Of a stretch of DNA of 30,769 nt, positions 4,303 to 25,357 are shown piece by piece. The position numbers and the translations under genes were made by a program. The notes below the pieces were generated by a model. That model ran no database searches. It had not been told where the DNA came from and saw only the letters and a program-made list of their open reading frames with translations. This DNA is from a virus (Duplodnaviria > Heunggongvirae > Uroviricota > Caudoviricetes): the IMG/VR virus record IMGVR_UViG_2802429253_000014, positions 1 through 30,769 of that record, one strand, 5' to 3'. Position 1 is the first letter of the stretch. Each line of letters opens with the position of its first letter.

Positions 4303-6601
4303 AGCCTCCGGGCGTTTTGTCCCTCCGTCAGCATTTGCCGCAGGCACCGGTAAGGCGTTTACCGGTGCTTATGCATGGAACGCGCCACGCGAGGCCGTCG
4401 GGCGAGAAAGACCTCTTACACGTGACGAGATGCGTCAGGTGCAAGGTGTTTTATCCACGATTAACCGCCTGCCTTACTTTTTGCGCTCGCTGTTTACTTC
4501 ACGCTATGACTACATCCGGCGCAATAAAAGCCCGGTGCACGGGTTTTATTTTCTCACATCCACTTTTCAGCGTCGTTTATGGCCGCGCATTGAGCGTGTG
4601 AATCAGCGCCATGAAATGAACACCGACGCGTCGTTGCTGTTTCTGGCAGAGCGTGACCATTATGCGCGTCTGCCGGGGATGAATGACAAGGAGCTGAAAA
4701 AGTTTGCCGCCCGTATCTCATCGCAGCTTTTCATGATGTATGAGGAACTCTGCGATGCCTGGGTGGATGCGCATGGCGAAAAAGAATCGCTGTTTACGGA
4801 TGAGGCGCAGGATCATCTGTATGGTCATGTTGCTGGCGCTGCACGTGCTTTCAATATTTCCCCGCTCTACTGGAAAAAATACCGTAAAGGACAGATAACC
4901 ACGAGGCAGGCATATTCTGCCATTGCCCGTCTGTTTAACGATGAGTGGTGGACTCATCAGCTTAAAGGCCAGCGTATGCGCTGGCATGAGGCGTTACTGA
5001 TTGCTGTCGGGGAGGTGAATAAAGACCGTTCTCCTTATGCCAGTAAACATGCCATTCGTGATGTACGTGCACGCCGCCAGGCAAATCTGGAATTTCTTAA
5101 ATCGTGTGACCTTGAAAACAGGGAAACCGGCGAGCGCATCGACCTTATCAGTAAGGTGATGGGCAGTATTTCTAATCCTGAAATTCGCCGGATGGAGCTG
5201 ATGAACACCATCGCCGGTATTGAGCGTTACGCCGCCGCAGAGGGTGATGTGGGGATGTTTATCACGCTGACCGCGCCGTCAAAGTATCATCCGACACGTC
5301 AGGTCAGAAAAGGCGAAAGTAAAACCGTCCAGCTAAATCACGGCTGGAATGATGAGGCATTTAATCCAAAGGATGCGCAGCGTTATCTCTGCCGTATCTG
5401 GAGCCTGATGCGCACGGCATTCAAGGATAATGATTTACAGGTCTACGGTTTGCGAGTCGTCGAGCCACACCACGACGGAACGCCGCACTGGCATATGATG
5501 CTTTTTTGTAATCCACGCCAGCGTAACCAGATTATCGAAATCATGCGTCGCTATGCGCTCAAAGAGGATGGCGACGAAAGAGGAGCCGCGCGAAACCGTT
5601 TTCAGGCGAAACACCTTAACCGGGGTGGTGCTGCGGGGTATATCGCGAAATACATCTCAAAAAATATCGACGGATATGCACTGGATGGTCAGCTCGATAA
5701 TGATACCGGCAGACCGCTGAAAGACACTGCCGCGGCTGTTACCGCATGGGCGTCAACGTGGCGCATCCCGCAATTTAAAACGGTTGGTCTGCCGACAATG
5801 GGGGCTTACCGTGAACTACGCAAATTGCCGCGCGGCGTCAGCATTGCTGATGAGTTTGACGAGCGCGTCGAGGCTGCACGCGCCGCCGCAGACAGTGGTG
5901 ATTTTGCGTTGTATATCAGCGCGCAGGGCGGGGCAAATGTCCCGCGCGATAGTCAGACTGTCAGGGTTGCCCGTAGTCCGTCGGATGACGTCAACGAATA
6001 CGAGGAGGAAGTCGAGAGAGTGGTCGGCATTTACGCGCCGCATCTCGGCGCGCGTCATATTCATATCACCAGAACGACGGACTGGCGCATTGTGCCGAAA
6101 GTTCCGGTCGTTGAGCCTTTGACTTTAAAAAGCGGCATCGCCGCGCCTCGGAGTCCTGTCAATAACTGTGGAAAGCTCACCGGTGGTGATACTTCGTTAC
6201 CGGCTCCCACACCTTCTGAGCACGCCGCAGCAGTGCTTAATCTGGTTGATGACGGTGTTATTGAATGGAATGAACCGGAGGTCGTGAGGGCGCTCAGGGG
6301 CGCATTAAAACACGGGCTGAGAACACCAAATCGTCAGCAGAGAAACGGAAGCCCGTTAAAACCGCATGAAATAGCGCCATCGGCCAGACTGACCCGGTCG
6401 GAACGATTGCAAATTACCCGTATCCGCGTTGATCTTGCTCAGAACGGTATCAGGCCTCAGCGATGGGAGCTTGAGGCGCTGGCGCGTGGGGCGACCGTAA
6501 ATTATGACGGGAAACAATTCACGTATCCGGTTGCTGATGAGTGGCCGGGATTTTTACAAACAGAAATTGTTTTTGGGATTAATAAGTTATCTCTAAGCTA
6601 A
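4292..6601 (+). CDS. A: replication initiation protein A (rolling-circle nickase)
   Basis: About 769 aa; near-identical to P2 gpA by recall (MAVKASGRFVPPSAFAAGTGKAF..., HWHMMLF HUH-type motif, ...AAGYIAKYISKN tyrosine region). Start chosen at ATG 4292, matching the P2 N-terminus, rather than the ORF-track start at 4250. Confidence 0.9.
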   Translation: MAVKASGRFVPPSAFAAGTGKAFTGAYAWNAPREAVGRERPLTRDEMRQVQGVLSTINRLPYFLRSLFTSRYDYIRRNKSPVHGFYFLTSTFQRRLWPRIERVNQRHEMNTDASLLFLAERDHYARLPGMNDKELKKFAARISSQLFMMYEELCDAWVDAHGEKESLFTDEAQDHLYGHVAGAARAFNISPLYWKKYRKGQITTRQAYSAIARLFNDEWWTHQLKGQRMRWHEALLIAVGEVNKDRSPYASKHAIRDVRARRQANLEFLKSCDLENRETGERIDLISKVMGSISNPEIRRMELMNTIAGIERYAAAEGDVGMFITLTAPSKYHPTRQVRKGESKTVQLNHGWNDEAFNPKDAQRYLCRIWSLMRTAFKDNDLQVYGLRVVEPHHDGTPHWHMMLFCNPRQRNQIIEIMRRYALKEDGDERGAARNRFQAKHLNRGGAAGYIAKYISKNIDGYALDGQLDNDTGRPLKDTAAAVTAWASTWRIPQFKTVGLPTMGAYRELRKLPRGVSIADEFDERVEAARAAADSGDFALYISAQGGANVPRDSQTVRVARSPSDDVNEYEEEVERVVGIYAPHLGARHIHITRTTDWRIVPKVPVVEPLTLKSGIAAPRSPVNNCGKLTGGDTSLPAPTPSEHAAAVLNLVDDGVIEWNEPEVVRALRGALKHGLRTPNRQQRNGSPLKPHEIAPSARLTRSERLQITRIRVDLAQNGIRPQRWELEALARGATVNYDGKQFTYPVADEWPGFLQTEIVFGINKLSLS

Positions 6602-6723
6602 GACGCTCAAAGCAAGAGATTATTTTACTGTACGTAGCCATCTGGAATTGTGGCTGTGTTAAAACGCTCGAGATTTTTTGGATATCCAGTTATACTCCGC
6701 TTAGAAATCATTCGGAGACTAAG

Positions 6724-7770
6724 ATGGCGGTAAAAGTTGTTGATCTTTTTTGCGGTGCTGGCGGTTTAACGCACGGCTTACATTTGGCCGGATTGGACGT
6801 TGTCGCAGGCATTGATTTAGAAGGTGAGTGTCGTGTTGCATACGAAAGCAATAATGATGCACTTTTTATTGAAAAAGATATATCTCTGGTGACAAAAGAT
6901 GAAATCGAAAATCTTTTTGAAGGGGCAAGTGTTAAAGTATTGGCCGGATGTGCACCTTGTCAGCCATTTTCTAAATATACTCAGGGAAAAGATAAAAAAA
7001 ATGATAAAAAGTGGCCGTTATTATATGAGTTTGAACGTTTAATAAAAGACACGAAACCAGAAATAGTTACAATGGAAAACGTTCCTGATGTGACAAAACA
7101 TTCTGTCTATGATGATTTTTATAATACCTTAATAGCATTGGGTTATTATGTTTGGGCAAATAAGATTGAATGTGTAGATTTTGAGGTTCCGCAAAACAGA
7201 GTGAGGCATGTATTACTCGCATCTAAATTTGCGCCGATTTCTCTGATGAAACCACAAACATCGGTAAAGCTGACAGTTAGGGATTGCATTGGTAATTTAC
7301 CTTCGATTGAAGCGGGACAAGCAGATCCAAAAGACCCTCTCCATAAGGCGAGTAGATTGAGTGAAATTAATCTCAAACGTATTCTACATTCAAAACCGGG
7401 GGGGACATGGAGGGATTGGCCTGCTGAATTAATCGCTTCATGTCATGCCAAGAAAAGTGGGCAGGGATATGCCAGTGTTTATGGTCGTATGTCTTGGGAT
7501 AAACCGAGTCCAACGATAACTACACTTTGTTATGGTTTTGGTAATGGACGTTTTGGTCATCCCGAGCAGCATCGTGCAATCTCACTTAGGGAAGCAGCAT
7601 TACTTCAAACGTTTCCTGTTACATATTCATTTACCCAACCGGGCGAGCCGATCAAAATGAAAAATGTCGGGCGTATGATAGGTAATGCTGTTCCTGTAAA
7701 CTTAGGTAAAGCGATTGGTCTTTCAATAGTACATCATTTGAAAGAGTTTCACCCCGCCGCTCTTAAATAA
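6724..7770 (+). CDS. DNA (cytosine-5) methyltransferase, Dcm-like
   Basis: 348 aa with canonical C5-MTase motifs in order: I FCGAGG, IV PCQPFS (catalytic Cys), VI ENV, VIII QNRVR, X GNAVP. GGAG Shine-Dalgarno; TATACT -10-like hexamer at 6691-6696. AT-rich relative to the phage core. Confidence 0.85.
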   Translation: MAVKVVDLFCGAGGLTHGLHLAGLDVVAGIDLEGECRVAYESNNDALFIEKDISLVTKDEIENLFEGASVKVLAGCAPCQPFSKYTQGKDKKNDKKWPLLYEFERLIKDTKPEIVTMENVPDVTKHSVYDDFYNTLIALGYYVWANKIECVDFEVPQNRVRHVLLASKFAPISLMKPQTSVKLTVRDCIGNLPSIEAGQADPKDPLHKASRLSEINLKRILHSKPGGTWRDWPAELIASCHAKKSGQGYASVYGRMSWDKPSPTITTLCYGFGNGRFGHPEQHRAISLREAALLQTFPVTYSFTQPGEPIKMKNVGRMIGNAVPVNLGKAIGLSIVHHLKEFHPAALK

Positions 7771-8468
7771 GCCTGAGTATCAAGATAAGTTTGTATATTT
7801 TCAAGGATGCAGTTGAGATAATGAAAAACTTCATCCTTCATTTCTGTTAGTGTATCAATAGATGTATCTCTGCCTTTGTTTCTAAATGATTCAGAACCAT
7901 GAGCAAGGTCGTTTCTGGCCTTTTTTATTGGAAGTAAATTGCAACCATTTCGCGTTATTTCTGAATCTGTATCTGCTGAGAAGCCATATTTTTCAGCGAC
8001 TTCTCTAATTTTTCTAGCATCAACATTTCCAGAAAATAACGGATTTTTATTTGATTGGATAAGTTTTTTGTGAGCGTTTAGCCACTCTTTAAATATAACT
8101 TTTGCAATGTTCCCTTGTGAGAAATCTATTTTCCCATTTGGTGATTGTAAACTATGAAATGCTACTCTTGTAAGGTTTTCATTTACAGTATCTGCACATA
8201 ATGATTCATTAGACATTAAAACATTATGAATGTCTTCTATTGCATTGGAAATGGTTGCTTCAATGAGATTGTACAATATAATAAATGCATTAGCCTTTAA
8301 AATATGAGTCATATCAATATCAATGGGTTGTTGTATAGGCGCATCGCTTGTATTCTCTTTATAGACTAGAGATGGTTTTTTGTTTATTAGTAACTGAATG
8401 AATGAGAAGTATTCATTAATATCTTGCATTCTTTCTTGGAAAAGAATTTTACTTGTCATCTCCTCCAT
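7749..8468 (-). CDS. HEPN-motif protein (predicted RNase-type effector)
   Basis: 239 aa; C-terminal ...KKARNDLAHGSESF... fits the HEPN Rx4-6H signature (R185, H190, coded at 7899-7916). Co-oriented 10 bp downstream of the DUF262 gene; very AT-rich. Family assignment is tentative and resembles what I recall as MAE_28990-type HEPN proteins. Confidence 0.65.
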   Translation of the reverse strand: MEEMTSKILFQERMQDINEYFSFIQLLINKKPSLVYKENTSDAPIQQPIDIDMTHILKANAFIILYNLIEATISNAIEDIHNVLMSNESLCADTVNENLTRVAFHSLQSPNGKIDFSQGNIAKVIFKEWLNAHKKLIQSNKNPLFSGNVDARKIREVAEKYGFSADTDSEITRNGCNLLPIKKARNDLAHGSESFRNKGRDTSIDTLTEMKDEVFHYLNCILENIQTYLDTQAYLRAAG

Positions 8469-8478
8469 TTACTTGGCC

Positions 8479-9630
8479 TCACTCCATATTTTCATCTTCA
8501 TCTTCATTTTCATCTTCGTCGACAATATTTTCTGGAATGTCTTTCCCAAGCAACTTGTTTTTTACATATTCAATGCGTGCTTTAACTTTGGGTTTAGAGT
8601 TGCTGGCATCTGAACGTGTGTGCGTGATAAACTCTTTCGAGTTGATCCAGTCATCAATATTTTTAGGAACTAAATTGGGTTCTTCCTCTAGTGCTAATGT
8701 TGCACCGACGGCAAGAGCTTCGAAACGAATCCTAGGAACAGTGGTGGCGTTTTTCACCTTTCTGAAACCATTTGGGAAATGTGTATTAATGAATTGGCAC
8801 ATTTTATGAAATTTTTCCGCCAGCATAGCTGCGTTTTCATCTGTATATTCGGCATTTTTACGTTTTAAATAGGTTGTAAGAAATTCATCAACGCTTTTTC
8901 TGAAATCAAGATATTCTTCAGTGTAGGCAAAGTAGCGTAGTGCCAATTCTGGATATTCAGAGCGACGTTTTCTTGCATCTCCCAAAGGACAGATGCTATG
9001 AAATAGAGGATCTTCGGAAATTTCATTGATAAATGCAAGGAATGGCCCATCATGGCTACCTTGCCGTTGTTCCATTGTTGTTAGTTTTTTTCCGCCAGTA
9101 TTCAGACGGTCAAAAATTTCCCTTCTTGTCTCTTCGTCACAATGTTCTGTAAGTTCAATCATTCGAATAGTTTTTCTATCAAAACGTAGGCGACGGGGAG
9201 TACTGAAATCAGAATATTTAAAACCATTGGCTGTGACTAATTTCTGCAGGCCTTCAAGAGTTAGTTTGTTATTGGTAAATTGGTGTAGGGTTCTTATTCG
9301 TTGGCTACCGTCAACAATTTCAAGTCTACCTTCATTTTCACCTGAACCAATATCGGCAACGAATATGTAAGGTATAGGAAGATTTAAAAGCAGAGATTCA
9401 ATGAAACGGGATTTTTGCTTGTTGTTCCAGATAAACTCCCTTTGGTAGTCAGGTATAAAAAGCTCTGCCTCATCTTCTTCAAGACCATTCTGAAATTTGT
9501 CCACAATAACACTTATCGGGAACTCACGTATTTCATGGTCAGTGATTTTTTGCATTTCAACTATGCTTTGATCTAAAAGCTCCTTTTCTTCTTTAGTTTT
9601 TGGGGTATGTTCTGCTTTTTTTCTCGCCAT
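8479..9630 (-). CDS. DUF262 (ParB/Srx-like, GmrS-type N-terminal domain) protein with poly-acidic C-terminal tail
   Basis: 383 aa; IPDYQREFIW, VDGSQR and FDRLNTGGKKL match the DUF262 signature (IPxYQRxxxW / DGQQR / RLNxxG). No His-Me/HNH (DUF1524) motifs found. C-terminus VDEDENEDEDENME. Confidence 0.8.
   Translation of the reverse strand: MARKKAEHTPKTKEEKELLDQSIVEMQKITDHEIREFPISVIVDKFQNGLEEDEAELFIPDYQREFIWNNKQKSRFIESLLLNLPIPYIFVADIGSGENEGRLEIVDGSQRIRTLHQFTNNKLTLEGLQKLVTANGFKYSDFSTPRRLRFDRKTIRMIELTEHCDEETRREIFDRLNTGGKKLTTMEQRQGSHDGPFLAFINEISEDPLFHSICPLGDARKRRSEYPELALRYFAYTEEYLDFRKSVDEFLTTYLKRKNAEYTDENAAMLAEKFHKMCQFINTHFPNGFRKVKNATTVPRIRFEALAVGATLALEEEPNLVPKNIDDWINSKEFITHTRSDASNSKPKVKARIEYVKNKLLGKDIPENIVDEDENEDEDENME
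8482..8520. repeat. imperfect hexanucleotide tandem repeat (TTCATC-like) encoding the acidic tail
   Basis: Plus strand ttcatcttcatcttcattttcatcttcgtc; reverse complement encodes DEDENEDEDE. Confidence 0.6.
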
Positions 9631-9769
9631 GAGCTTATTATCCTACTATGCGTGTGATTGCATTAAATTGCATGTTAAACAAAAGCATAATCTATATCAG
9701 TCAATCAGCCAGTGGCAAGGTGTTGTGATTACAATGCAACTGCATTAGAACCGACTCATGAAGCGGGCG

Positions 9770-19204: not shown

Positions 19205-19846
19205 ATGAACACTCTCGCAAATATTCAGGAACTCGCGCGCGCACTGCGCAACATGATTCGTACTGGCCTTGTCGTCGAAACCGACCTTAAAGCCGGTCGC
19301 TGCCGTGTGCAGACAGGTGGCATGTGCACCGACTGGCTTCAGTGGCTGACCCATCGTGCCGGTCGTTCGCGCACATGGTGGGCACCTTCCGTGGGGGAGC
19401 AGGTGCTGATTCTGGCCGTGGGTGGTGAACTCGACACGGCGTTCGTTCTGCCGGGGATTTATTCCGGCGATAACCCCGCGCCGTCTGCGTCGGCGGATGC
19501 CCTGCATATCCGTTTCCCTGACGGGGCGGTGATTGAGTATGAACCTGAAACCAGTGCACTCACGGTAAGCGGAATTAAAACGGCCAGCGTGACGGCTTCT
19601 GATTCTGTTACCGCCACGGTGCCGGTGGTCATGGTGAAAGCATCAACCCGCGTCACCCTGGACACACCAGAGGTGGTCTGCACTAACAAACTGACTACCG
19701 GCACGCTGGAAGTGCAGAAGGGCGGGAAGATGCACGGCAACATCGAGCATACCGACGGGAAATTCACGTCTAACGGCGTTCAGGTGGATAACCACGGTCA
19801 CGGTGGTGTTAAGTCAGGTGACAACTGGACGCAGGGGACAAAATGA
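19205..19846 (+). CDS. V: baseplate spike protein V
   Basis: 213 aa, P2 gpV position and sequence by recall. Confidence 0.88.
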   Translation: MNTLANIQELARALRNMIRTGLVVETDLKAGRCRVQTGGMCTDWLQWLTHRAGRSRTWWAPSVGEQVLILAVGGELDTAFVLPGIYSGDNPAPSASADALHIRFPDGAVIEYEPETSALTVSGIKTASVTASDSVTATVPVVMVKASTRVTLDTPEVVCTNKLTTGTLEVQKGGKMHGNIEHTDGKFTSNGVQVDNHGHGGVKSGDNWTQGTK

Positions 19847-20190
19847 CAGCGCGTTATCTCGGAATGAATCGCAGTGATGGCCTGACTGTCACTGACCTTG
19901 AGCATATCAGCCAGAGTATCGGCGATATCCTGCGCACACCGGTCGGCTCACGGGTGATGCGTCGTGATTACGGCTCGTTGCTGGCGTCAATGATTGACCA
20001 GCCGCAGACCCCGGCGCTTGAGTTGCAGATTAAGGTCGCCTGTTACATGGCCGTGCTGAAATGGGAACCCCGCGTCACCCTGTCATCCGTCACCACGGCG
20101 CGCAGTTTTGACGGGCGAATGACGGTCACGTTAACCGGCCAGCACAACGACACCGGCCAGCCACTTTCGTTAACCATCCCTGTGAGTTGA
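19843..20190 (+). CDS. W: baseplate wedge protein W (gp25-like)
   Basis: 115 aa, start overlaps the V stop (ATGA); P2 gpW. Confidence 0.88.
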   Translation: MTARYLGMNRSDGLTVTDLEHISQSIGDILRTPVGSRVMRRDYGSLLASMIDQPQTPALELQIKVACYMAVLKWEPRVTLSSVTTARSFDGRMTVTLTGQHNDTGQPLSLTIPVS

Positions 20191-20194
20191 AACC

Positions 20195-21103
20195 ATGCCG
20201 ATTATCGACCTGAACCAGCTACCCGCACCGGATGTGGTCGAGGAGCTGGACTTTGAAACCATTCTTGCCGAACGCAAGGCGACACTGATTTCCCTTTACC
20301 CGGAAGACCAGCAGGAGGCGGTCGCCCGTACCCTGACGCTGGAATCTGAGCCTCTCGTCAAACTGCTGGAGGAAAATGCTTATCGTGAGCTTATCTGGCG
20401 TCAGCGTGTGAATGAGGCTGCACGGGCGGTGATGCTGGCCTGTGCCGCCGGTAATGACCTTGATGTGATTGGTGCCAATTACAACACCACACGCCTGATT
20501 ATCACCCCGGCAGATGATTCGACCCTCCCGCCGACACCGGCCGTGATGGAATCTGACACCGATTATCGTCTGCGTATTCAGCAGGCGTTTGAAGGTTTAA
20601 GCGTCGCCGGGTCGGTGGGGGCCTATCAGTATCATGGTCGAAGTGCCGACGGGCGTGTCGCAGATATCTCTGTCACCAGTCCTTCTCCGGCCTGCGTCAC
20701 CATCTCTGTGCTGTCACGTGAAAATAACGGTGTGGCATCCGAAGACCTGCTGGCGGTGGTGCGCAACGCCCTTAATGGTGAGGACGTCAGACCGGTGGCC
20801 GACCGTGTGACCGTGCAGTCTGCCGTCATCGTTGAATACCAGATAAATGCCACGCTTTACCTTTACCCTGGCCCCGAAAGCGAACCCATTCGCGCTGCCG
20901 CCGTGAAAAAACTGGAAGCGTACATCACGGCACAGCACCGGCTTGGGCGCGACATCCGTCTGTCTGCCATTTATGCCGCTTTGCATGTGGAAGGCGTGCA
21001 GCGTGTCGAACTGGCTGCACCGCTGGCCGACATCGTGCTCAACAATACGCAGGCGTCTTTCTGTACCGAATACAGCGTCGTGACCGGAGGCTCGGATGAG
21101 TGA
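20195..21103 (+). CDS. J: baseplate protein J
   Basis: 302 aa, P2 gpJ position and sequence by recall. Confidence 0.88.
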   Translation: MPIIDLNQLPAPDVVEELDFETILAERKATLISLYPEDQQEAVARTLTLESEPLVKLLEENAYRELIWRQRVNEAARAVMLACAAGNDLDVIGANYNTTRLIITPADDSTLPPTPAVMESDTDYRLRIQQAFEGLSVAGSVGAYQYHGRSADGRVADISVTSPSPACVTISVLSRENNGVASEDLLAVVRNALNGEDVRPVADRVTVQSAVIVEYQINATLYLYPGPESEPIRAAAVKKLEAYITAQHRLGRDIRLSAIYAALHVEGVQRVELAAPLADIVLNNTQASFCTEYSVVTGGSDE

Positions 21104-21626
21104 TTCGCGACTGCTGCCGACCGGCTCATCACCGCTTGAAGTCGCTGCCGCAAAAGCCTGTGCGGAAATTGAAAAAACGCCGGTCAGGATTCGTGAGTTG
21201 TGGAACCCGGACACCTGCCCGGCAAATTTGCTGCCGTGGCTGGCGTGGGCGTTTTCGGTCGACAGGTGGGATGAAAAGTGGCCGGAAGCGACAAAACGCG
21301 CCGTTATCCGCGATGCGTATTTCATTCACTGCCATAAGGGCACTATTGGTGCGATTCGCCGTGTGGTGGAGCCGCTCGGCTATCTCATCAACGTGACGGA
21401 GTGGTGGGAAAACAGCGACCCGCCCGGCACCTTCCGGCTTGATATCGGCGTACTGGAAAGCGGCATCACGGAGGAGATGTATCTGGAAATGGAACGGCTG
21501 ATTGCCGATGCCAAACCTGCAAGTCGTCACCTTATTGGTCTGAATATTACCCAGGACATCCCCGGTTATCTGTTTGCCGGTGGTGTGGCTTATGACGGCG
21601 ATGTTATTACGGTTTACCCAGGATAA
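21096..21626 (+). CDS. I: baseplate / tail-fibre attachment protein I
   Basis: 176 aa, overlaps the J end by 8 nt; P2 gpI. Confidence 0.85.
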   Translation: MSDSRLLPTGSSPLEVAAAKACAEIEKTPVRIRELWNPDTCPANLLPWLAWAFSVDRWDEKWPEATKRAVIRDAYFIHCHKGTIGAIRRVVEPLGYLINVTEWWENSDPPGTFRLDIGVLESGITEEMYLEMERLIADAKPASRHLIGLNITQDIPGYLFAGGVAYDGDVITVYPG

Positions 21627-21636
21627 GTGAGGAATA

Positions 21637-23460
21637 ATGAGCGCAAAGTTCCAAACCGTTATCACTACTGCCGGTGCAGCAAAGCTGGCAGCGGCGACTG
21701 CACCGGGAGGCAGGAAGGTCAACATTACCACGATGGCCGTCGGGGACGGTGGCGGTCAATTGCCGGTGCCGGATGCCGGACAGACAAAACTTGTTAATGA
21801 GGTCTGGCGACATGCCCTGAATAAAATCAGTCAGGACAATCGACACAGTAATTATATTATCGCAGAGCTGGTCATCCCGCCGGAGGTGGGCGGTTTCTGG
21901 ATGCGTGAGCTTGGCCTGTACGATGATGCGGGAACGTTAATTGCTGTGGCGAACATGGCCGAAAGTTATAAGCCCGCTCTTGCCGAAGGCTCAGGGCGTT
22001 CGCAGACCTGCCGCATGGTCATCATCGTCAGCAGTGTGGCCTCAGTGGATCTGACCATCGACACCACAACGGTGATGGCGACGCAGGATTACGTTGATGA
22101 CAAAATTGCAGAGCACGAACAGTCACGACGCCACCCGGACGCCTCACTGACTGCAAAAGGTTTTACTCAGTTAAGCAGCGCGACCAATAGTGAATCTGAA
22201 ACGCTGGCCGCAACGCCGAAAGCGGTAAAGGCCGCCTATGACCTTGCTAACGGGAAATATACTGCACAGGATGCCACTACAGCGCGAAAAGGCCTTGTTC
22301 AGCTCAGTAGCGCCATCAACAGCGATTCTGAAACGCTTGCGGCAACGCCAAAGGCGGTTAAGACAGCGTATGACCTTGCTAACGGGAAATACACTGCGCA
22401 GGACGCTACTACAGCGCGAAAAGGGCTTGTTCAGCTCAGTAATGACACCAACAGCGATTCTGAAACATTTGCCGCGACTCCGAAAGCGGTGAAAGCTGCC
22501 AATGATAATGCAAACAGACGCGTTCCTGACGGGCGTAAGGTCAATGGCAAACCACTGACCAATGATGTCAATGTTACATCGCAGGATATTTTTAACAGTC
22601 AGAGTATTGAGATTGGTGCAAACCAGAATCTGGATAATTACAAAACGCCGGGACTGTACCATCAGCCACTGAATGCGAATACAAGCGCATCGCTGAAATA
22701 CCCGGAGAATCTTGCAGGTACTCTGGTTGTGCTTAAAAATGCCGGAATAACACAAATTTACTATGTCTATAACACATCAAGAAGCTATACCCGCAGCCAG
22801 TATTCAACGGGGGGCTGGACATCATGGACACCGCAGGATTCATTTCCGGTAGGTGCTCCAATCCCGTGGCCTTCTGATTCAGTACCTACAGGCTATGCCC
22901 TGATGCTGGGGCAGACTTTTGATAAAGCAGCCTATCCCCTGCTTGCAGCAGCTTATCCGTCAGGGGTGATTCCAGATATGCGCGGCTGGACAATCAAGGG
23001 CAAACCCGCCAGTGGTCGCGCCGTATTATCACAGGAACAGGACGGCATTAAATCGCATACTCACAGCGCTAGTGCGTCAAATACGGATTTGGGAACGAAA
23101 ACAACCAGTTCGTTTGATTACGGAACAAAAACGGTCAGCACATTTAACCATGGGACGAAATCTACTAATAGCACGGGGAATCATGCTCACTCATTTACAG
23201 TATTAAATGAAGAGCAGAAAGACGGGCCAAACGCCGCGGGGGCGACGGGGAAATCAGTAGGAACAGTAACGACCTCCTCAGCCGGTAACCATGCCCATAC
23301 TGTCGATATTGGTCAGCATAACCACACCGTAGGTATTGGTGCCCATGCACATACTGTGGCATTGGGGGCGCACGGACACACCATCACGGTCAATGCTACG
23401 GGGAATTCAGAGAACACCGTAAAAAATATTGCATATAACTATATTGTGAGGCTTGCATAA
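21637..23460 (+). CDS. H: tail fibre protein H; P2-like N-terminus with a different C-terminal receptor-binding region
   Basis: 607 aa. The N-terminal ~230 aa match P2 gpH by recall. The downstream part has a tail-collar-like motif ([34 protein letters not shown]) and His-x-His repeats (GNHAH..., [31 protein letters not shown]) that I do not recall in P2 gpH. Confidence 0.88.
22159..22512 (+). repeat. about 2.7 copies of a 132-bp (44-aa) tandem repeat inside H
   Basis: Units at 22159-22290, 22291-22422 and a partial unit at 22423-~22512, encoding G(F/L)(T/V)QLS...[30 protein letters not shown]. Confidence 0.8.
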
Positions 23461-24038
23461 TGGCTTTCAGAATGAGTGCAGAAGCACAAACTATCCGCGT
23501 TTTCAATTTACTTGATGGAACCAATGAGTTTATTGGCGAAAGTGATGCATATATTCCGCCGCATACAGGTCTGCCTGCAAACAGTACAGATATTGCACCG
23601 CCTGATATTCCTGCTGGTTATGCAGCCGTTTTCAATGCAGATGAAATGAAATGGGAACTGATGGAAGACCATCGCGGAAAGACCGTCTATGAAACGAAAA
23701 CGGGAGCAGCCATTTATATTTCTGAACTTGGCGTATTACCTCCAGACGTGACAGCCATTTCCCCGGATGGGGATTATCAGAAATGGAACGGAAATGCGTG
23801 GGTGAATGATGAGAATGCAGAGCGTGATGCGCTTGTCAGAGCGGCTGACTCTCAGAAGAAAGAGCTGATTGCATATGCAGGTGAAATTATTGCCACTCTG
23901 CAGGATGCTGTCGATTTAGATATGGCTACCGAGGAAGAAAAGTTAAGCCTGACACACTGGAAAAAATACCGTGTGCTACTGAATCGCGTTCAGCCGGAAG
24001 ATGCTCCGGATATAGAATGGCCTGAACTACCGCAATAA
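23460..24038 (+). CDS. G: tail fibre assembly chaperone
   Basis: 192 aa, start overlaps the H stop; position of P2 gpG. Confidence 0.8.
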
Positions 24039-24042
24039 ACAC

Positions 24043-24070
24043 AGGCGGGCTGATTGCCCGCCTTTTCTTT
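24043..24070 (+). terminator. rho-independent terminator after G
   Basis: Hairpin AGGCGGGC-TGATT-GCCCGCCT followed by TTTCTTT, starting 5 nt after the G stop. Confidence 0.7.
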
Positions 24071-24166: not shown

Positions 24167-25357
24167 ATGAGTGACTATCATCACGGCGTGCAGGTGCTGG
24201 AGATTAACGACGGCACCCGCGTCATTTCCACCGTATCCACGGCCATTGTCGGCATGGTCTGCACGGCCAGCGATGCGGATGCGGAAACCTTCCCCCTCAA
24301 TAAACCGGTGCTGATTACCAATGTGCAGAGCGCAATTGCAAAGGCTGGTAAAAAAGGCACGCTGGCGGCGTCGTTGCAGGCCATCGCTGACCAGTCAAAA
24401 CCGGTCACCGTTGTCGTGCGTGTTGAAGACGGCACCGGCGACGACGAAGAAACGAAACTTGCGCAGACCGTTTCCAATATCATCGGCACTACCGACGAAA
24501 ATGGTCAGTACACCGGACTGAAAGCCCTGCTGGCGGCGGAGTCGGTAACCGGTGTTAAACCGTGTATCCTCGGTGTGCCGGGGCTGGATACCAAAGAGGT
24601 GGCTGTTGCACTGGCATCAGTCTGTCAGAAGCTGCGCGCTTTCGGGTATATCAGCGCATGGGGCTGTAAGACCATTTCCGAGGTGAAAGCCTACCGTCAG
24701 AATTTCAGCCAGCGTGAGCTGATGGTCATCTGGCCGGATTTCCTCGCATGGGATACGGTCACCAGTACCACCGCCACCGCGTATGCCACCGCCCGTGCGC
24801 TGGGTCTGCGCGCTAAAATCGACCAGGAGCAGGGCTGGCATAAAACACTGTCCAACGTTGGGGTGAACGGTGTTACCGGCATCAGCGCATCTGTATTCTG
24901 GGATTTGCAGGAGTCCGGCACCGATGCTGACCTGCTTAACGAGTCAGGCGTCACAACGCTGATTCGCCGTGACGGTTTCCGCTTCTGGGGTAACCGTACC
25001 TGCTCTGATGACCCGCTGTTCCTCTTTGAAAACTACACCCGCACCGCGCAGGTGCTGGCCGACACGATGGCTGAGGCGCACATGTGGGCGGTGGACAAGC
25101 CCATCACCGCAACGCTGATTCGCGACATCGTTGACGGCATCAATGCCAAATTCCGTGAGCTGAAAACAAACGGCTATATCGTGGATGCGACCTGCTGGTT
25201 CAGCGAAGAATCCAACGATGCGGAAACCCTCAAGGCCGGAAAACTGTATATCGACTACGACTATACCCCGGTGCCTCCTCTCGAAAACCTGACCCTGCGC
25301 CAGCGTATCACCGATAAATACCTGGCAAATCTGGTCACCTCGGTTAACAGCAATTAA
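24167..25357 (+). CDS. FI: contractile tail sheath protein
   Basis: 396 aa, P2 gpFI by recall (MSDYHHGVQVLEINDGTR...). Confidence 0.92.
   Translation: MSDYHHGVQVLEINDGTRVISTVSTAIVGMVCTASDADAETFPLNKPVLITNVQSAIAKAGKKGTLAASLQAIADQSKPVTVVVRVEDGTGDDEETKLAQTVSNIIGTTDENGQYTGLKALLAAESVTGVKPCILGVPGLDTKEVAVALASVCQKLRAFGYISAWGCKTISEVKAYRQNFSQRELMVIWPDFLAWDTVTSTTATAYATARALGLRAKIDQEQGWHKTLSNVGVNGVTGISASVFWDLQESGTDADLLNESGVTTLIRRDGFRFWGNRTCSDDPLFLFENYTRTAQVLADTMAEAHMWAVDKPITATLIRDIVDGINAKFRELKTNGYIVDATCWFSEESNDAETLKAGKLYIDYDYTPVPPLENLTLRQRITDKYLANLVTSVNSN

What the first reader, a model, noticed from the sequence alone, without database searches (positions are those of the whole stretch)
22800..23460. Tail fibre H carries a non-P2 receptor-binding tip (collar motif plus His-x-His repeats)
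After the P2-like N-terminus and repeat shaft, the C-terminal ~220 aa contain a tail-collar-type motif ([34 protein letters not shown]) and several HxH repeats ([38 protein letters not shown]) like the metal-binding repeats of T4 gp37/gp12 and lambda Stf-type fibre tips. I do not recall these in the P2 gpH C-terminus. This indicates a mosaic host-range module and predicts a different receptor from P2.
Basis: partly seen in the sequence, partly recalled or inferred. Interest (0 to 1): 0.45.

Follow-up and report, generated by a model that had tools for sequence, protein, structure and literature searches.

The report
P2-type tail fibre with T4-type tip
The tail-fibre gene of this P2-like prophage has swapped its far end for the well-known needle-shaped receptor-binding tip of phage T4 and lambda side fibres, together with the matching assembly gene; this kind of host-range swap is ordinary and already described, and the only new element is a rare variant of the very end of the tip.

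Summary
ORF 21637..23460 (607 aa) is P2 gpH-like only over residues 1-251 (92%). Nothing after that aligns to P2 gpH, which has no HxH motif. Residues 401-607 are a close homologue, not just a look-alike, of the solved T4 gp37 receptor-binding tip (PDB 2XGF, E 2.8e-77, about 65-70% identity). They hold a collar domain (Pfam PF07484) and a needle stem with six HxH motifs (T4 has seven; 0.74 expected by chance). They also hold a 27-residue distal head (519-545) that is only 8-13% identical to any of seven comparators, while the flanks are 49-99% identical. The next gene (23460..24038, start overlapping the H stop as TAATG) is a lambda-Tfa/T4-gp38-type assembly protein. It belongs to the same imported, lower-GC module, which ends at a terminator-like hairpin (24043-24063). 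This "T4- and lambda-based" tip family, P2-like members included, was described in 2022, and the exact protein is already in RefSeq (WP_105264063.1). Salmonella phage STYP1 carries the same fibre (91%) with a different head cassette. The head variant here is rare: I found it in no deposited phage record and no complete E. coli genome, only in a few Escherichia draft assemblies. Its receptor is unknown. Verdict: real, interpretation supported, low novelty.

The parts
21637..23460 (+). Tail fibre gene (P2 gene H position), 607 aa, a mosaic of at least three origins
   Evidence: ORF list. It follows the baseplate J and I genes and precedes the sheath gene. PHROG tail fibre families match, phrog_295 at E 1e-249. 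The exact protein is WP_105264063.1.
21637..22089 (+). Residues 1-151: P2-type N-terminal domain (Phage_tail_fib); inferred to attach the fibre to the baseplate
   Evidence: Pfam PF12571, E 3.1e-58. 92% identical to P2 gpH over residues 1-251.
22144..22515 (+). Residues 170-293: shaft of three Phage_fiber_2 repeats (canonical P2 aligns through only two); includes the 132-nt tandem repeat at 22177-22495
   Evidence: Pfam PF03406, three stretches, E 2.1e-59. TRF reports period 132, 2.4 copies, 83% matches. The P2 alignments end inside this repeat region.
22516..22836 (+). Residues 294-400: linker plus a knob-like domain (about 325-400) that is neither P2 gpH-like nor T4 gp37-like
   Evidence: No Pfam family and no similarity to T4 gp37. 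Weak sequence matches to the R1/R2 pyocin fibre knob, E 0.05-0.12. Foldseek on the confident part of the model (pLDDT about 80) gives 6ct8/6cl5 at E 5.9e-4. The DNA is 97-100% identical to STYP1.
22837..23052 (+). Residues 401-472: collar domain, equivalent to T4 gp37 residues 811-881
   Evidence: Pfam Collar PF07484 at residues 406-453. Aligned to 2XGF. 79-99% identical to seven homologues.
23053..23190 (+). Residues 473-518: descending strand of the needle stem, with HxH motifs at 474 and 516
   Evidence: Aligned to the T4 gp37 stem (882-931; PMC6957217). The T4 HxH at 915 has no counterpart here.
23191..23271 (+). Residues 519-545: distal head (tip subdomain), hypervariable; the predicted receptor-contact site
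   Evidence: It sits at the position of T4 gp37 residues 932-959, whose residues bind LPS and OmpC (PMC6957217). It is 8-13% identical to all seven comparators, against 49-99% in the flanks. DNA identity to STYP1 falls to about 40% here.
23272..23406 (+). Residues 546-590: ascending strand of the needle stem, with HxH motifs at 552, 561, 570 and 579
   Evidence: Aligned to the T4 gp37 stem (960-1009). The His positions are invariant across 54 homologues.
23407..23457 (+). Residues 591-607: conserved C-terminal end (...[16 protein letters not shown])
   Evidence: 82-100% identical in all comparators.
23460..24038 (+). Tail fibre assembly gene, 192 aa, lambda Tfa / T4 gp38 type; its start overlaps the H stop codon (TAATG)
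   Evidence: Pfam Caudo_TAP PF02413, E 6e-40. 66% identical to the lambdoid HK629 Tfa and 29-31% to T4 gp38 over nearly the whole length. P2 gpG matches only over the C-terminal 70 aa. The overlap was read from the sequence.
24043..24063 (+). Terminator-like G+C-rich hairpin followed by a T run, just after the assembly gene
   Evidence: Consensus scan: 8 pairs, 7 of them G-C, then TTTCTTTATC. In P2 a terminator for the V operon is annotated downstream of gene G.

Best explanation
The gene encodes a trimeric P2-type tail fibre whose distal end has been replaced by recombination. The P2-like N-terminus (1-151) and repeat shaft (to about 293) keep it attached to the P2 baseplate. After a knob-like domain (about 325-400), residues 401-607 form a T4 gp37-type tip. 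That tip has a collar domain and a needle of descending and ascending strands from three chains. The needle is held together by metal ions bound to stacked HxH motifs, six rungs here against seven in T4. At the far pole sits a small head (519-545) that contacts the host receptor. The co-transferred downstream Tfa/gp38-type protein, translationally coupled to H, is inferred to be the chaperone that folds this tip. Host range is set mainly by the head, which is exchanged as a cassette between conserved stem sequences. The sister fibre in Salmonella phage STYP1 differs essentially only there. Shown here: the homology, the domain boundaries, the mosaic junctions, the cassette pattern and the rarity of this head. 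Inferred: trimer formation, metal binding, the chaperone requirement and receptor binding by the head. The receptor itself is not determined. By analogy it is an outer-membrane porin such as OmpC and/or an LPS-core sugar.
For: 2XGF matches residues 401-607 at E 2.8e-77. The eight-sequence alignment shows conserved collar and stems with a divergent centre. There are six HxH motifs against 0.74 expected, and the His positions are invariant in 54 homologues. T4's extra HxH at 915 and a 5-residue segment on its ascending strand are both missing here, which fits the loss of one whole rung. P2 gpH aligns only to residue 251. The assembly protein is 66% identical to lambda-type Tfa and 29% to T4 gp38 over its full length. 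The module has 46-50% GC against 54-57% for neighbouring tail genes. DNA identity to STYP1 is 97-100%, drops to about 40% over 23137-23260, then returns above 90%. On function, T4 tip residues 932-959 bind LPS and OmpC and seven irons line the needle (PMC6957217). Lambda Stf binds OmpC (PMC12617516). The family and its adjacent gp38-like gene were described in PMC9659904. The prophage shows a complete set of P2-sized ORFs, and the fibre ORF is intact in several Escherichia species.
Against: Nothing here tests trimerisation, metal content, chaperone dependence or adsorption. The single-chain AlphaFold2 model of the needle is poor (mean pLDDT 59, needle 40-60), as expected for an intertwined trimer, so the fold rests on sequence homology alone. 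No relative carrying this head allele has a known receptor.
Confidence: 0.85

Rival explanations
1. The tip still targets LPS core, as P2 does, so the swap changes the binding structure and the sugar epitope but not the class of receptor.
For: Members of this tip family bind LPS-core glucose. T4 uses it on E. coli B (PMC6957217), and Citrobacter phage PhiNP uses Glc-II of the LPS (PMC9659904). P2's native target is LPS (PMC9594776).
Against: Other members use OmpC: T4 on K-12 and lambda Stf (PMC6957217, PMC12617516). The head here shares only 8-13% identity with any of them, so no receptor can be carried over by homology.
Confidence: 0.3
2. The downstream 192-aa protein stays on the fibre tip and is itself the adhesin, as gp38 is in T2/S16-type phages, rather than acting only as a chaperone.
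For: From my own knowledge, not tested here: in T2/S16-type phages gp38 caps gp37 and binds the receptor, and the Mu Tfa remains bound to its fibre tip.
Against: The protein matches only Caudo_TAP assembly families. It is 97% identical to the Tfa of phage P24A7b, whose fibre has a different head. It therefore does not co-vary with the hypervariable segment. It aligns with T4 gp38, annotated 'assembly catalyst for gp37'.
Confidence: 0.08
3. The fibre is a non-functional relic of a decaying prophage, and the His-rich run is just low-complexity sequence.
For: No expression or induction data are available. A close relative in E. coli CE0011b is interrupted by IS2.
Against: The ORF is intact and nearly identical in E. 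coli, E. marmotae, E. albertii and unclassified Escherichia. All P2-sized structural ORFs are present. The HxH positions align column for column with those of the T4 structure and are invariant in 54 homologues. Shuffling never reproduces six motifs.
Confidence: 0.04

Closest known systems
T4 gp37 long-tail-fibre receptor-binding tip (PDB 2XGF; residues 811-1026)
   Same: Collar, needle and head layout; about 65-70% identity over 207 residues; HxH motifs aligned; identical C-terminal NYIVRLA end; a gp38-related gene immediately downstream.
   Different: It sits on a 607-aa P2 fibre, not the 1026-aa gp37. It has six HxH rungs, not seven. The head is unrelated in sequence (3 of 23 aligned residues identical). 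The assembly protein is lambda-Tfa-like (66%) rather than gp38-like (29%).
Lambda side tail fibre Stf C-terminus (orf-314) plus Tfa, as in lambdoid phage HK629
   Same: The same tip family (71% identity over the aligned tip; 58% by tblastn). The Tfa is 66% identical and directly downstream. Lambda Stf binds OmpC (PMC12617516).
   Different: The lambdoid needle is longer, with a large insertion in the central region. It is attached to a siphovirus side fibre, not a myovirus baseplate fibre.
Salmonella phage STYP1 (Peduovirus) tail fibre, 605 aa
   Same: 91% identical along the full length, with the same three-part mosaic and the same gene order H-tfa-sheath.
   Different: It carries a different needle and head cassette. 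DNA identity falls to about 40% at 23137-23260, and head identity is 2 of 25 residues.
The 'T4- and lambda-based RBP family' of Magaziner and Salmond 2022 (PMC9659904), including P2-like Salmonella phage SEN5 and Citrobacter phage PhiNP ORF6
   Same: Homology is confined to the last ~215 aa, divergence is centred on the T4 specificity segment, and a gp38/Tfa-like gene of 184-207 aa lies directly downstream. All three features are seen here.
   Different: This particular head allele does not appear among the comparators I examined. SEN5 is only 66% identical over the tip.
P2 gpH (canonical, 669 aa) with gpG
   Same: N-terminal 251 residues 92% identical, the same gene position, and a conserved C-terminal 70 aa in the assembly protein (44%).
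   Different: No similarity after residue ~251. P2 gpH has no collar domain and no HxH motif.

Membership tests
T4 gp37 / lambda Stf-type receptor-binding tip (2XGF fold; RBP family of PMC9659904) | Sequence homology over the C-terminal ~215 residues, reaching the ...NYIVRLA end | tested here: met
   phmmer against PDB: 2XGF E 2.8e-77, query 401-607. The alignment shows 70% identity to T4 and 71% to HK629.
T4 gp37 / lambda Stf-type receptor-binding tip (2XGF fold; RBP family of PMC9659904) | Collar domain (Pfam PF07484) preceding the needle | tested here: met
   PF07484, E 2.5e-10, 40.6 bits (cut-off 24), residues 406-453.
T4 gp37 / lambda Stf-type receptor-binding tip (2XGF fold; RBP family of PMC9659904) | Stacked HxH motifs on both strands of the needle (seven in T4, each binding one iron) | tested here: met
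   Six of T4's seven motifs are present and aligned. The one at T4 915 is absent, together with a 5-residue segment of the ascending strand. Metal binding itself was not tested.
T4 gp37 / lambda Stf-type receptor-binding tip (2XGF fold; RBP family of PMC9659904) | Divergent specificity segment inserted between conserved stem halves (T4 932-959/965) | tested here: met
   Residues 519-545 are 8-13% identical to seven homologues, against 49-99% in the flanks.
T4 gp37 / lambda Stf-type receptor-binding tip (2XGF fold; RBP family of PMC9659904) | gp38/Tfa-like assembly gene directly downstream (184-207 aa) | tested here: met
   192-aa Caudo_TAP protein that overlaps the H stop codon; 66% identical to lambda-type Tfa and 29% to T4 gp38.
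T4 gp37 / lambda Stf-type receptor-binding tip (2XGF fold; RBP family of PMC9659904) | Intertwined homotrimer with iron ions on the threefold axis | not testable with these tools
   Only single-chain prediction is available, and the needle came out at pLDDT 40-60. Foldseek still ranks 2XGF first, but at TM 0.18-0.24.
P2 gpH tail fibre | P2-type N-terminal domain and Phage_fiber_2 shaft, encoded after baseplate genes J and I | tested here: met
   PF12571 and PF03406; 92% identity over residues 1-251; gene order.
P2 gpH tail fibre | P2 gpH C-terminal receptor-binding region (residues ~252-669) | tested here: not met
   BLASTP finds no alignment beyond residue 251, apart from repeat self-similarity. 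The same holds for a second P2 isolate beyond residue 293.
T2/S16-type fibre with gp38 adhesin | Downstream gene encodes a gp38 adhesin rather than a Caudo_TAP chaperone | tested here: not met
   The downstream protein matches Caudo_TAP (E 6e-40) and tail fibre assembly PHROGs only.

The most novel reading that the evidence does not exclude
The head allele here ([28 protein letters not shown]) has no counterpart in any deposited phage record or complete E. coli genome I searched. It turns up mainly in non-coli or cryptic Escherichia lineages (E. marmotae, E. albertii, unclassified Escherichia), on at least two fibre scaffolds. It may recognise a surface structure that no characterised T4/lambda-type tip uses. 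If so, it is a ready-made new specificity cassette for this engineerable tip family.
Probability: 0.4. Interest if true: 0.3.

Novelty: new member of a known kind. Interest (0 to 1): 0.2.

Why it matters
The result matters mainly as a clean worked example. One gene shows three recombination layers: a P2 scaffold, a knob plus T4/lambda-type tip with its chaperone, and inside the tip a swappable head cassette. On the practical side, the 605-aa (STYP1-type) and 607-aa (this) fibres form a natural near-isogenic pair that differs almost only in the needle and head. That makes them a convenient system for assigning receptor specificity to the head, and for retargeting P2-based particles. It does not change what is known about tail-fibre evolution.

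Tried and rejected
1. A full-length relationship to P2 gpH is rejected. Neither canonical P2 nor a second isolate aligns past residue 251 or 293.

2. Origin of the knob region (294-400) in T4 gp37 is rejected. BLASTP against full-length gp37 finds nothing, and Pfam finds nothing. Only weak pyocin-fibre knob similarity remains, which I leave as tentative.

3. A single-chain AlphaFold2 model of residues 295-607 with a 54-sequence alignment was poor for the needle (pLDDT 59 overall). I did not use it as evidence for the needle fold.

4. Three searches for the head allele found no copy of it. tblastn of the 39-aa head against 50,697 phage records gave no match; the low-complexity filter may have contributed. 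The species-representative genome scan with a 56-aa query around the head confirmed no relative. blastn of the head DNA against 5,426 complete E. coli genomes gave one 68% match only.

5. The apparently broad spread of the tip beyond Enterobacterales is rejected as real. Those hits look like lambda DNA contamination.

6. A T2-type gp38 adhesin is rejected on domain content.

Full report
**What is there**

The finding lies in ORF 21637..23460 (+), 607 aa. This is the tail-fibre gene of a P2-like prophage. It follows the baseplate genes (W, J and I homologues at 19843..21626) and precedes a 192-aa ORF (23460..24038) and the tail sheath gene (24167..25357).

Pfam finds four features:
- the P2-type N-terminal domain, PF12571, residues 1-151, E 3.1e-58
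- three Phage_fiber_2 repeats, PF03406, E 2.1e-59
- a Collar domain, PF07484, residues 406-453, E 2.5e-10, above the curated cut-off
- Caudo_TAP, PF02413, E 6e-40, in the downstream protein

Six HxH motifs start at residues 474, 516, 552, 561, 570 and 579. Shuffling residues 401-607 gives 0.74 on average, and none of 20,000 shuffles reached six.

**Is it non-P2?**

Yes. Canonical P2 gpH (NC_001895, 669 aa) aligns at 92% identity over residues 1-251 and then not at all. It contains no HxH motif. A second record named P2 (NC_070905, 736-aa fibre) aligns to residue 293 and no further.

**What the C-terminus is**

A sequence search of the Protein Data Bank places residues 401-607 on the T4 gp37 receptor-binding tip. 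This is 2XGF, the long tail fibre needle, at E 2.8e-77, covering the chain almost end to end.

I used the T4 subdomain limits given in PMC6957217: stem 882-931 and 960-1009, tip 932-959, seven iron atoms along the needle. With those and an eight-sequence alignment, the window protein divides as follows:

| Residues | Subdomain | Identity to seven homologues |
|---|---|---|
| 401-472 | collar | 79-99% |
| 473-518 | descending stem | 72-93% |
| 519-545 | head | 8-13% |
| 546-590 | ascending stem | 49-96% |
| 591-607 | conserved end | 82-100% |

The seven homologues are P2-like STYP1, P24A7b, Chuche and SEN5, T4-like T4 and Lv5cm, and lambdoid HK629. The head identity of 8-13% means it is unrelated to all of them.

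T4's seven needle HxH motifs are at 883, 915, 929, 966, 980, 989 and 998. The window keeps six. It lacks the one at 915 and also a five-residue segment on the returning strand. I read this as a needle one rung shorter than T4's. That reading is an inference.

The His positions are invariant across 54 homologues.

**The module is larger than the finding**

The downstream 192-aa protein compares as follows:

| Comparator | Identity |
|---|---|
| P24A7b Tfa | 97% |
| STYP1 Tfa | 90% |
| lambda-type Tfa of HK629 | 66% |
| T4 gp38 | 29-31% over almost its whole length (E 3e-19) |
| P2 gpG | 44% over the C-terminal 70 residues only |

Its ATG overlaps the fibre's stop codon (TAATG). A terminator-like hairpin follows at 24043-24063.

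GC content is 46-50% for residues 294-607 of the fibre and for tfa. It is 54-57% for the P2-like part of the fibre and the flanking tail genes.

Between the P2 shaft and the T4-type tip lies a third piece, residues 294-400. It has no Pfam family and no similarity to T4 gp37. It weakly resembles the knob domains of R1/R2 pyocin fibres, both by sequence (E 0.05-0.12) and by fold on the confident part of the model (E 5.9e-4). That assignment is tentative.

**How common is this arrangement?**

The tip is widespread. tblastn finds it in 643 phage records:
- T4-like phages (T4 65%, Salmonella phage Lv5cm 75%)
- lambdoid side tail fibres (58-63%)
- P2-like phages (STYP1 87%, SEN5 57%)
- others, such as Yersinia phage PY100

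More than 1,000 proteins match at E <= 1e-20 in the large protein collection.

Magaziner and Salmond (PMC9659904) described exactly this in 2022 as a 'T4- and lambda-based RBP family' of over 200 phages. In their account, homology is confined to the last ~215 residues, divergence is centred on the T4 specificity segment, and a gp38-like gene lies immediately downstream. P2-like phage SEN5 is a named member.

The exact window protein is already in RefSeq as WP_105264063.1, 'phage tail protein' from unclassified Escherichia.

**What is particular here**

The 90%-identity cluster of this protein holds two forms:
- 607-aa fibres with the head ...[29 protein letters not shown]..., from E. coli, E. 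marmotae, E. albertii and unclassified Escherichia
- 605-aa fibres with the STYP1 head ...HTVGGRYGGDSIGGKQRVQVSGTNQV..., from S. Typhi, E. coli and E. albertii

At the DNA level, window and STYP1 are 97-100% identical from 22237 to about 23010. Identity falls to about 40% at 23137-23260 and is above 90% again after about 23400. This is a clean cassette replacement inside an otherwise shared gene.

Among the 120 best tip homologues there are 54 distinct central segments, falling into roughly ten or more types.

The window's head type is rare:
- no match among 50,697 phage records
- one distant (68%) DNA match among 5,426 complete E. coli genomes
- none among species-representative genomes

It does occur on a different, 284-aa fibre scaffold (P0002). 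A diverged version occurs on two more proteins (P0089, P0093).

**Mechanism**

*Shown:* homology, boundaries, junctions and cassette structure.

*Inferred from the T4 and lambda literature:* the fibre trimerises, and the HxH pairs of the three chains bind metal ions that staple the needle. The Tfa/gp38-type protein is needed for folding. The head at the distal pole contacts the receptor.

In T4 the head residues 932-959 bind both LPS glucose and OmpC (PMC6957217). Lambda Stf binds OmpC (PMC12617516). PhiNP, another family member, uses LPS Glc-II (PMC9659904). P2 itself binds LPS (PMC9594776).

Because the head here is unrelated in sequence to all of these, the receptor cannot be assigned. A porin or an LPS-core sugar are the likely classes. 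The claim 'different from P2' is probable for the epitope, but unproven for the class of molecule.

**Rivals**

- A T2/S16-type arrangement, in which the downstream protein is the adhesin, is unlikely. That protein is a Caudo_TAP chaperone and is 97% identical between fibres with different heads.
- A decayed relic is unlikely, given intact and conserved ORFs across species and a complete set of P2-sized ORFs.

**Verdict**

The kind of element is well known. The only new element is an uncharacterised, rare head allele. Interest is low.

Noticed in passing
window 6500-9700: A low-GC island (30-39% against about 55%) sits between the P2-type replication gene and the portal gene. It has three ORFs: a C-5 cytosine DNA methylase (6724..7770 +, PF00145, E 1.8e-54), a HEPN MAE_28990-type protein (7749..8468 -, E 7.6e-18) and a GmrSD_N/DUF262 protein (8479..9630 -, E 4.7e-28). 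It looks like anti-phage defence cargo at a P2 variable locus.
   Followed up: partly
L002:3701-4315 (Salmonella phage STYP1) and L008:1489-2109 (T4-like Salmonella phage Lv5cm): A temperate P2-like phage of S. Typhi and a virulent T4-like Salmonella phage share an identical head peptide. The central ~180 nt of the tip is 93-98% identical at the DNA level, while the flanks are only 58-84% identical. This suggests recent exchange of just the head cassette between a temperate and a lytic phage.
   Followed up: partly
L016-L026, L029, L038, L042-L044 and similar loci: Hits with the same score (62% identity over a 738-nt match) lie on contigs of about 48.4-48.5 kb, or on short low-coverage contigs. 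The assemblies are from unrelated taxa, including Chromatiales, Leeuwenhoekiella, Pseudomonas, Neobacillus, Paenibacillus, Shewanella, Kitasatospora and Bradyrhizobium. The contig size matches the lambda genome, so this is most likely lambda control-DNA contamination and not real distribution of the tip.
   Followed up: no
H91, E. coli CE0011b NZ_CP119008.1 15033-18722: The only complete E. coli genome covering at least 80% of the H-tfa query (93.5% identity) has an IS2 transposase annotated inside the matching stretch. The fibre is annotated as two 'tail fiber protein' features, so that copy is probably disrupted.
   Followed up: no
window 22177-22495: A 132-nt tandem repeat (2.4 copies, 83% matches) encodes the Phage_fiber_2 units. 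The window has three units where canonical P2 aligns through two. Both P2 alignments end inside this repeat, which makes it a plausible recombination and slippage site.
   Followed up: partly
L010:3073-3897 (SEN5) and L012:4099-4968 (Chuche): Two P2-like relatives carry an extra ORF of about 270-290 aa between the fibre gene and the assembly gene. It is annotated 'tail fiber protein' in SEN5 and 'hypothetical protein' in Chuche. The window and STYP1 lack it.
   Followed up: no
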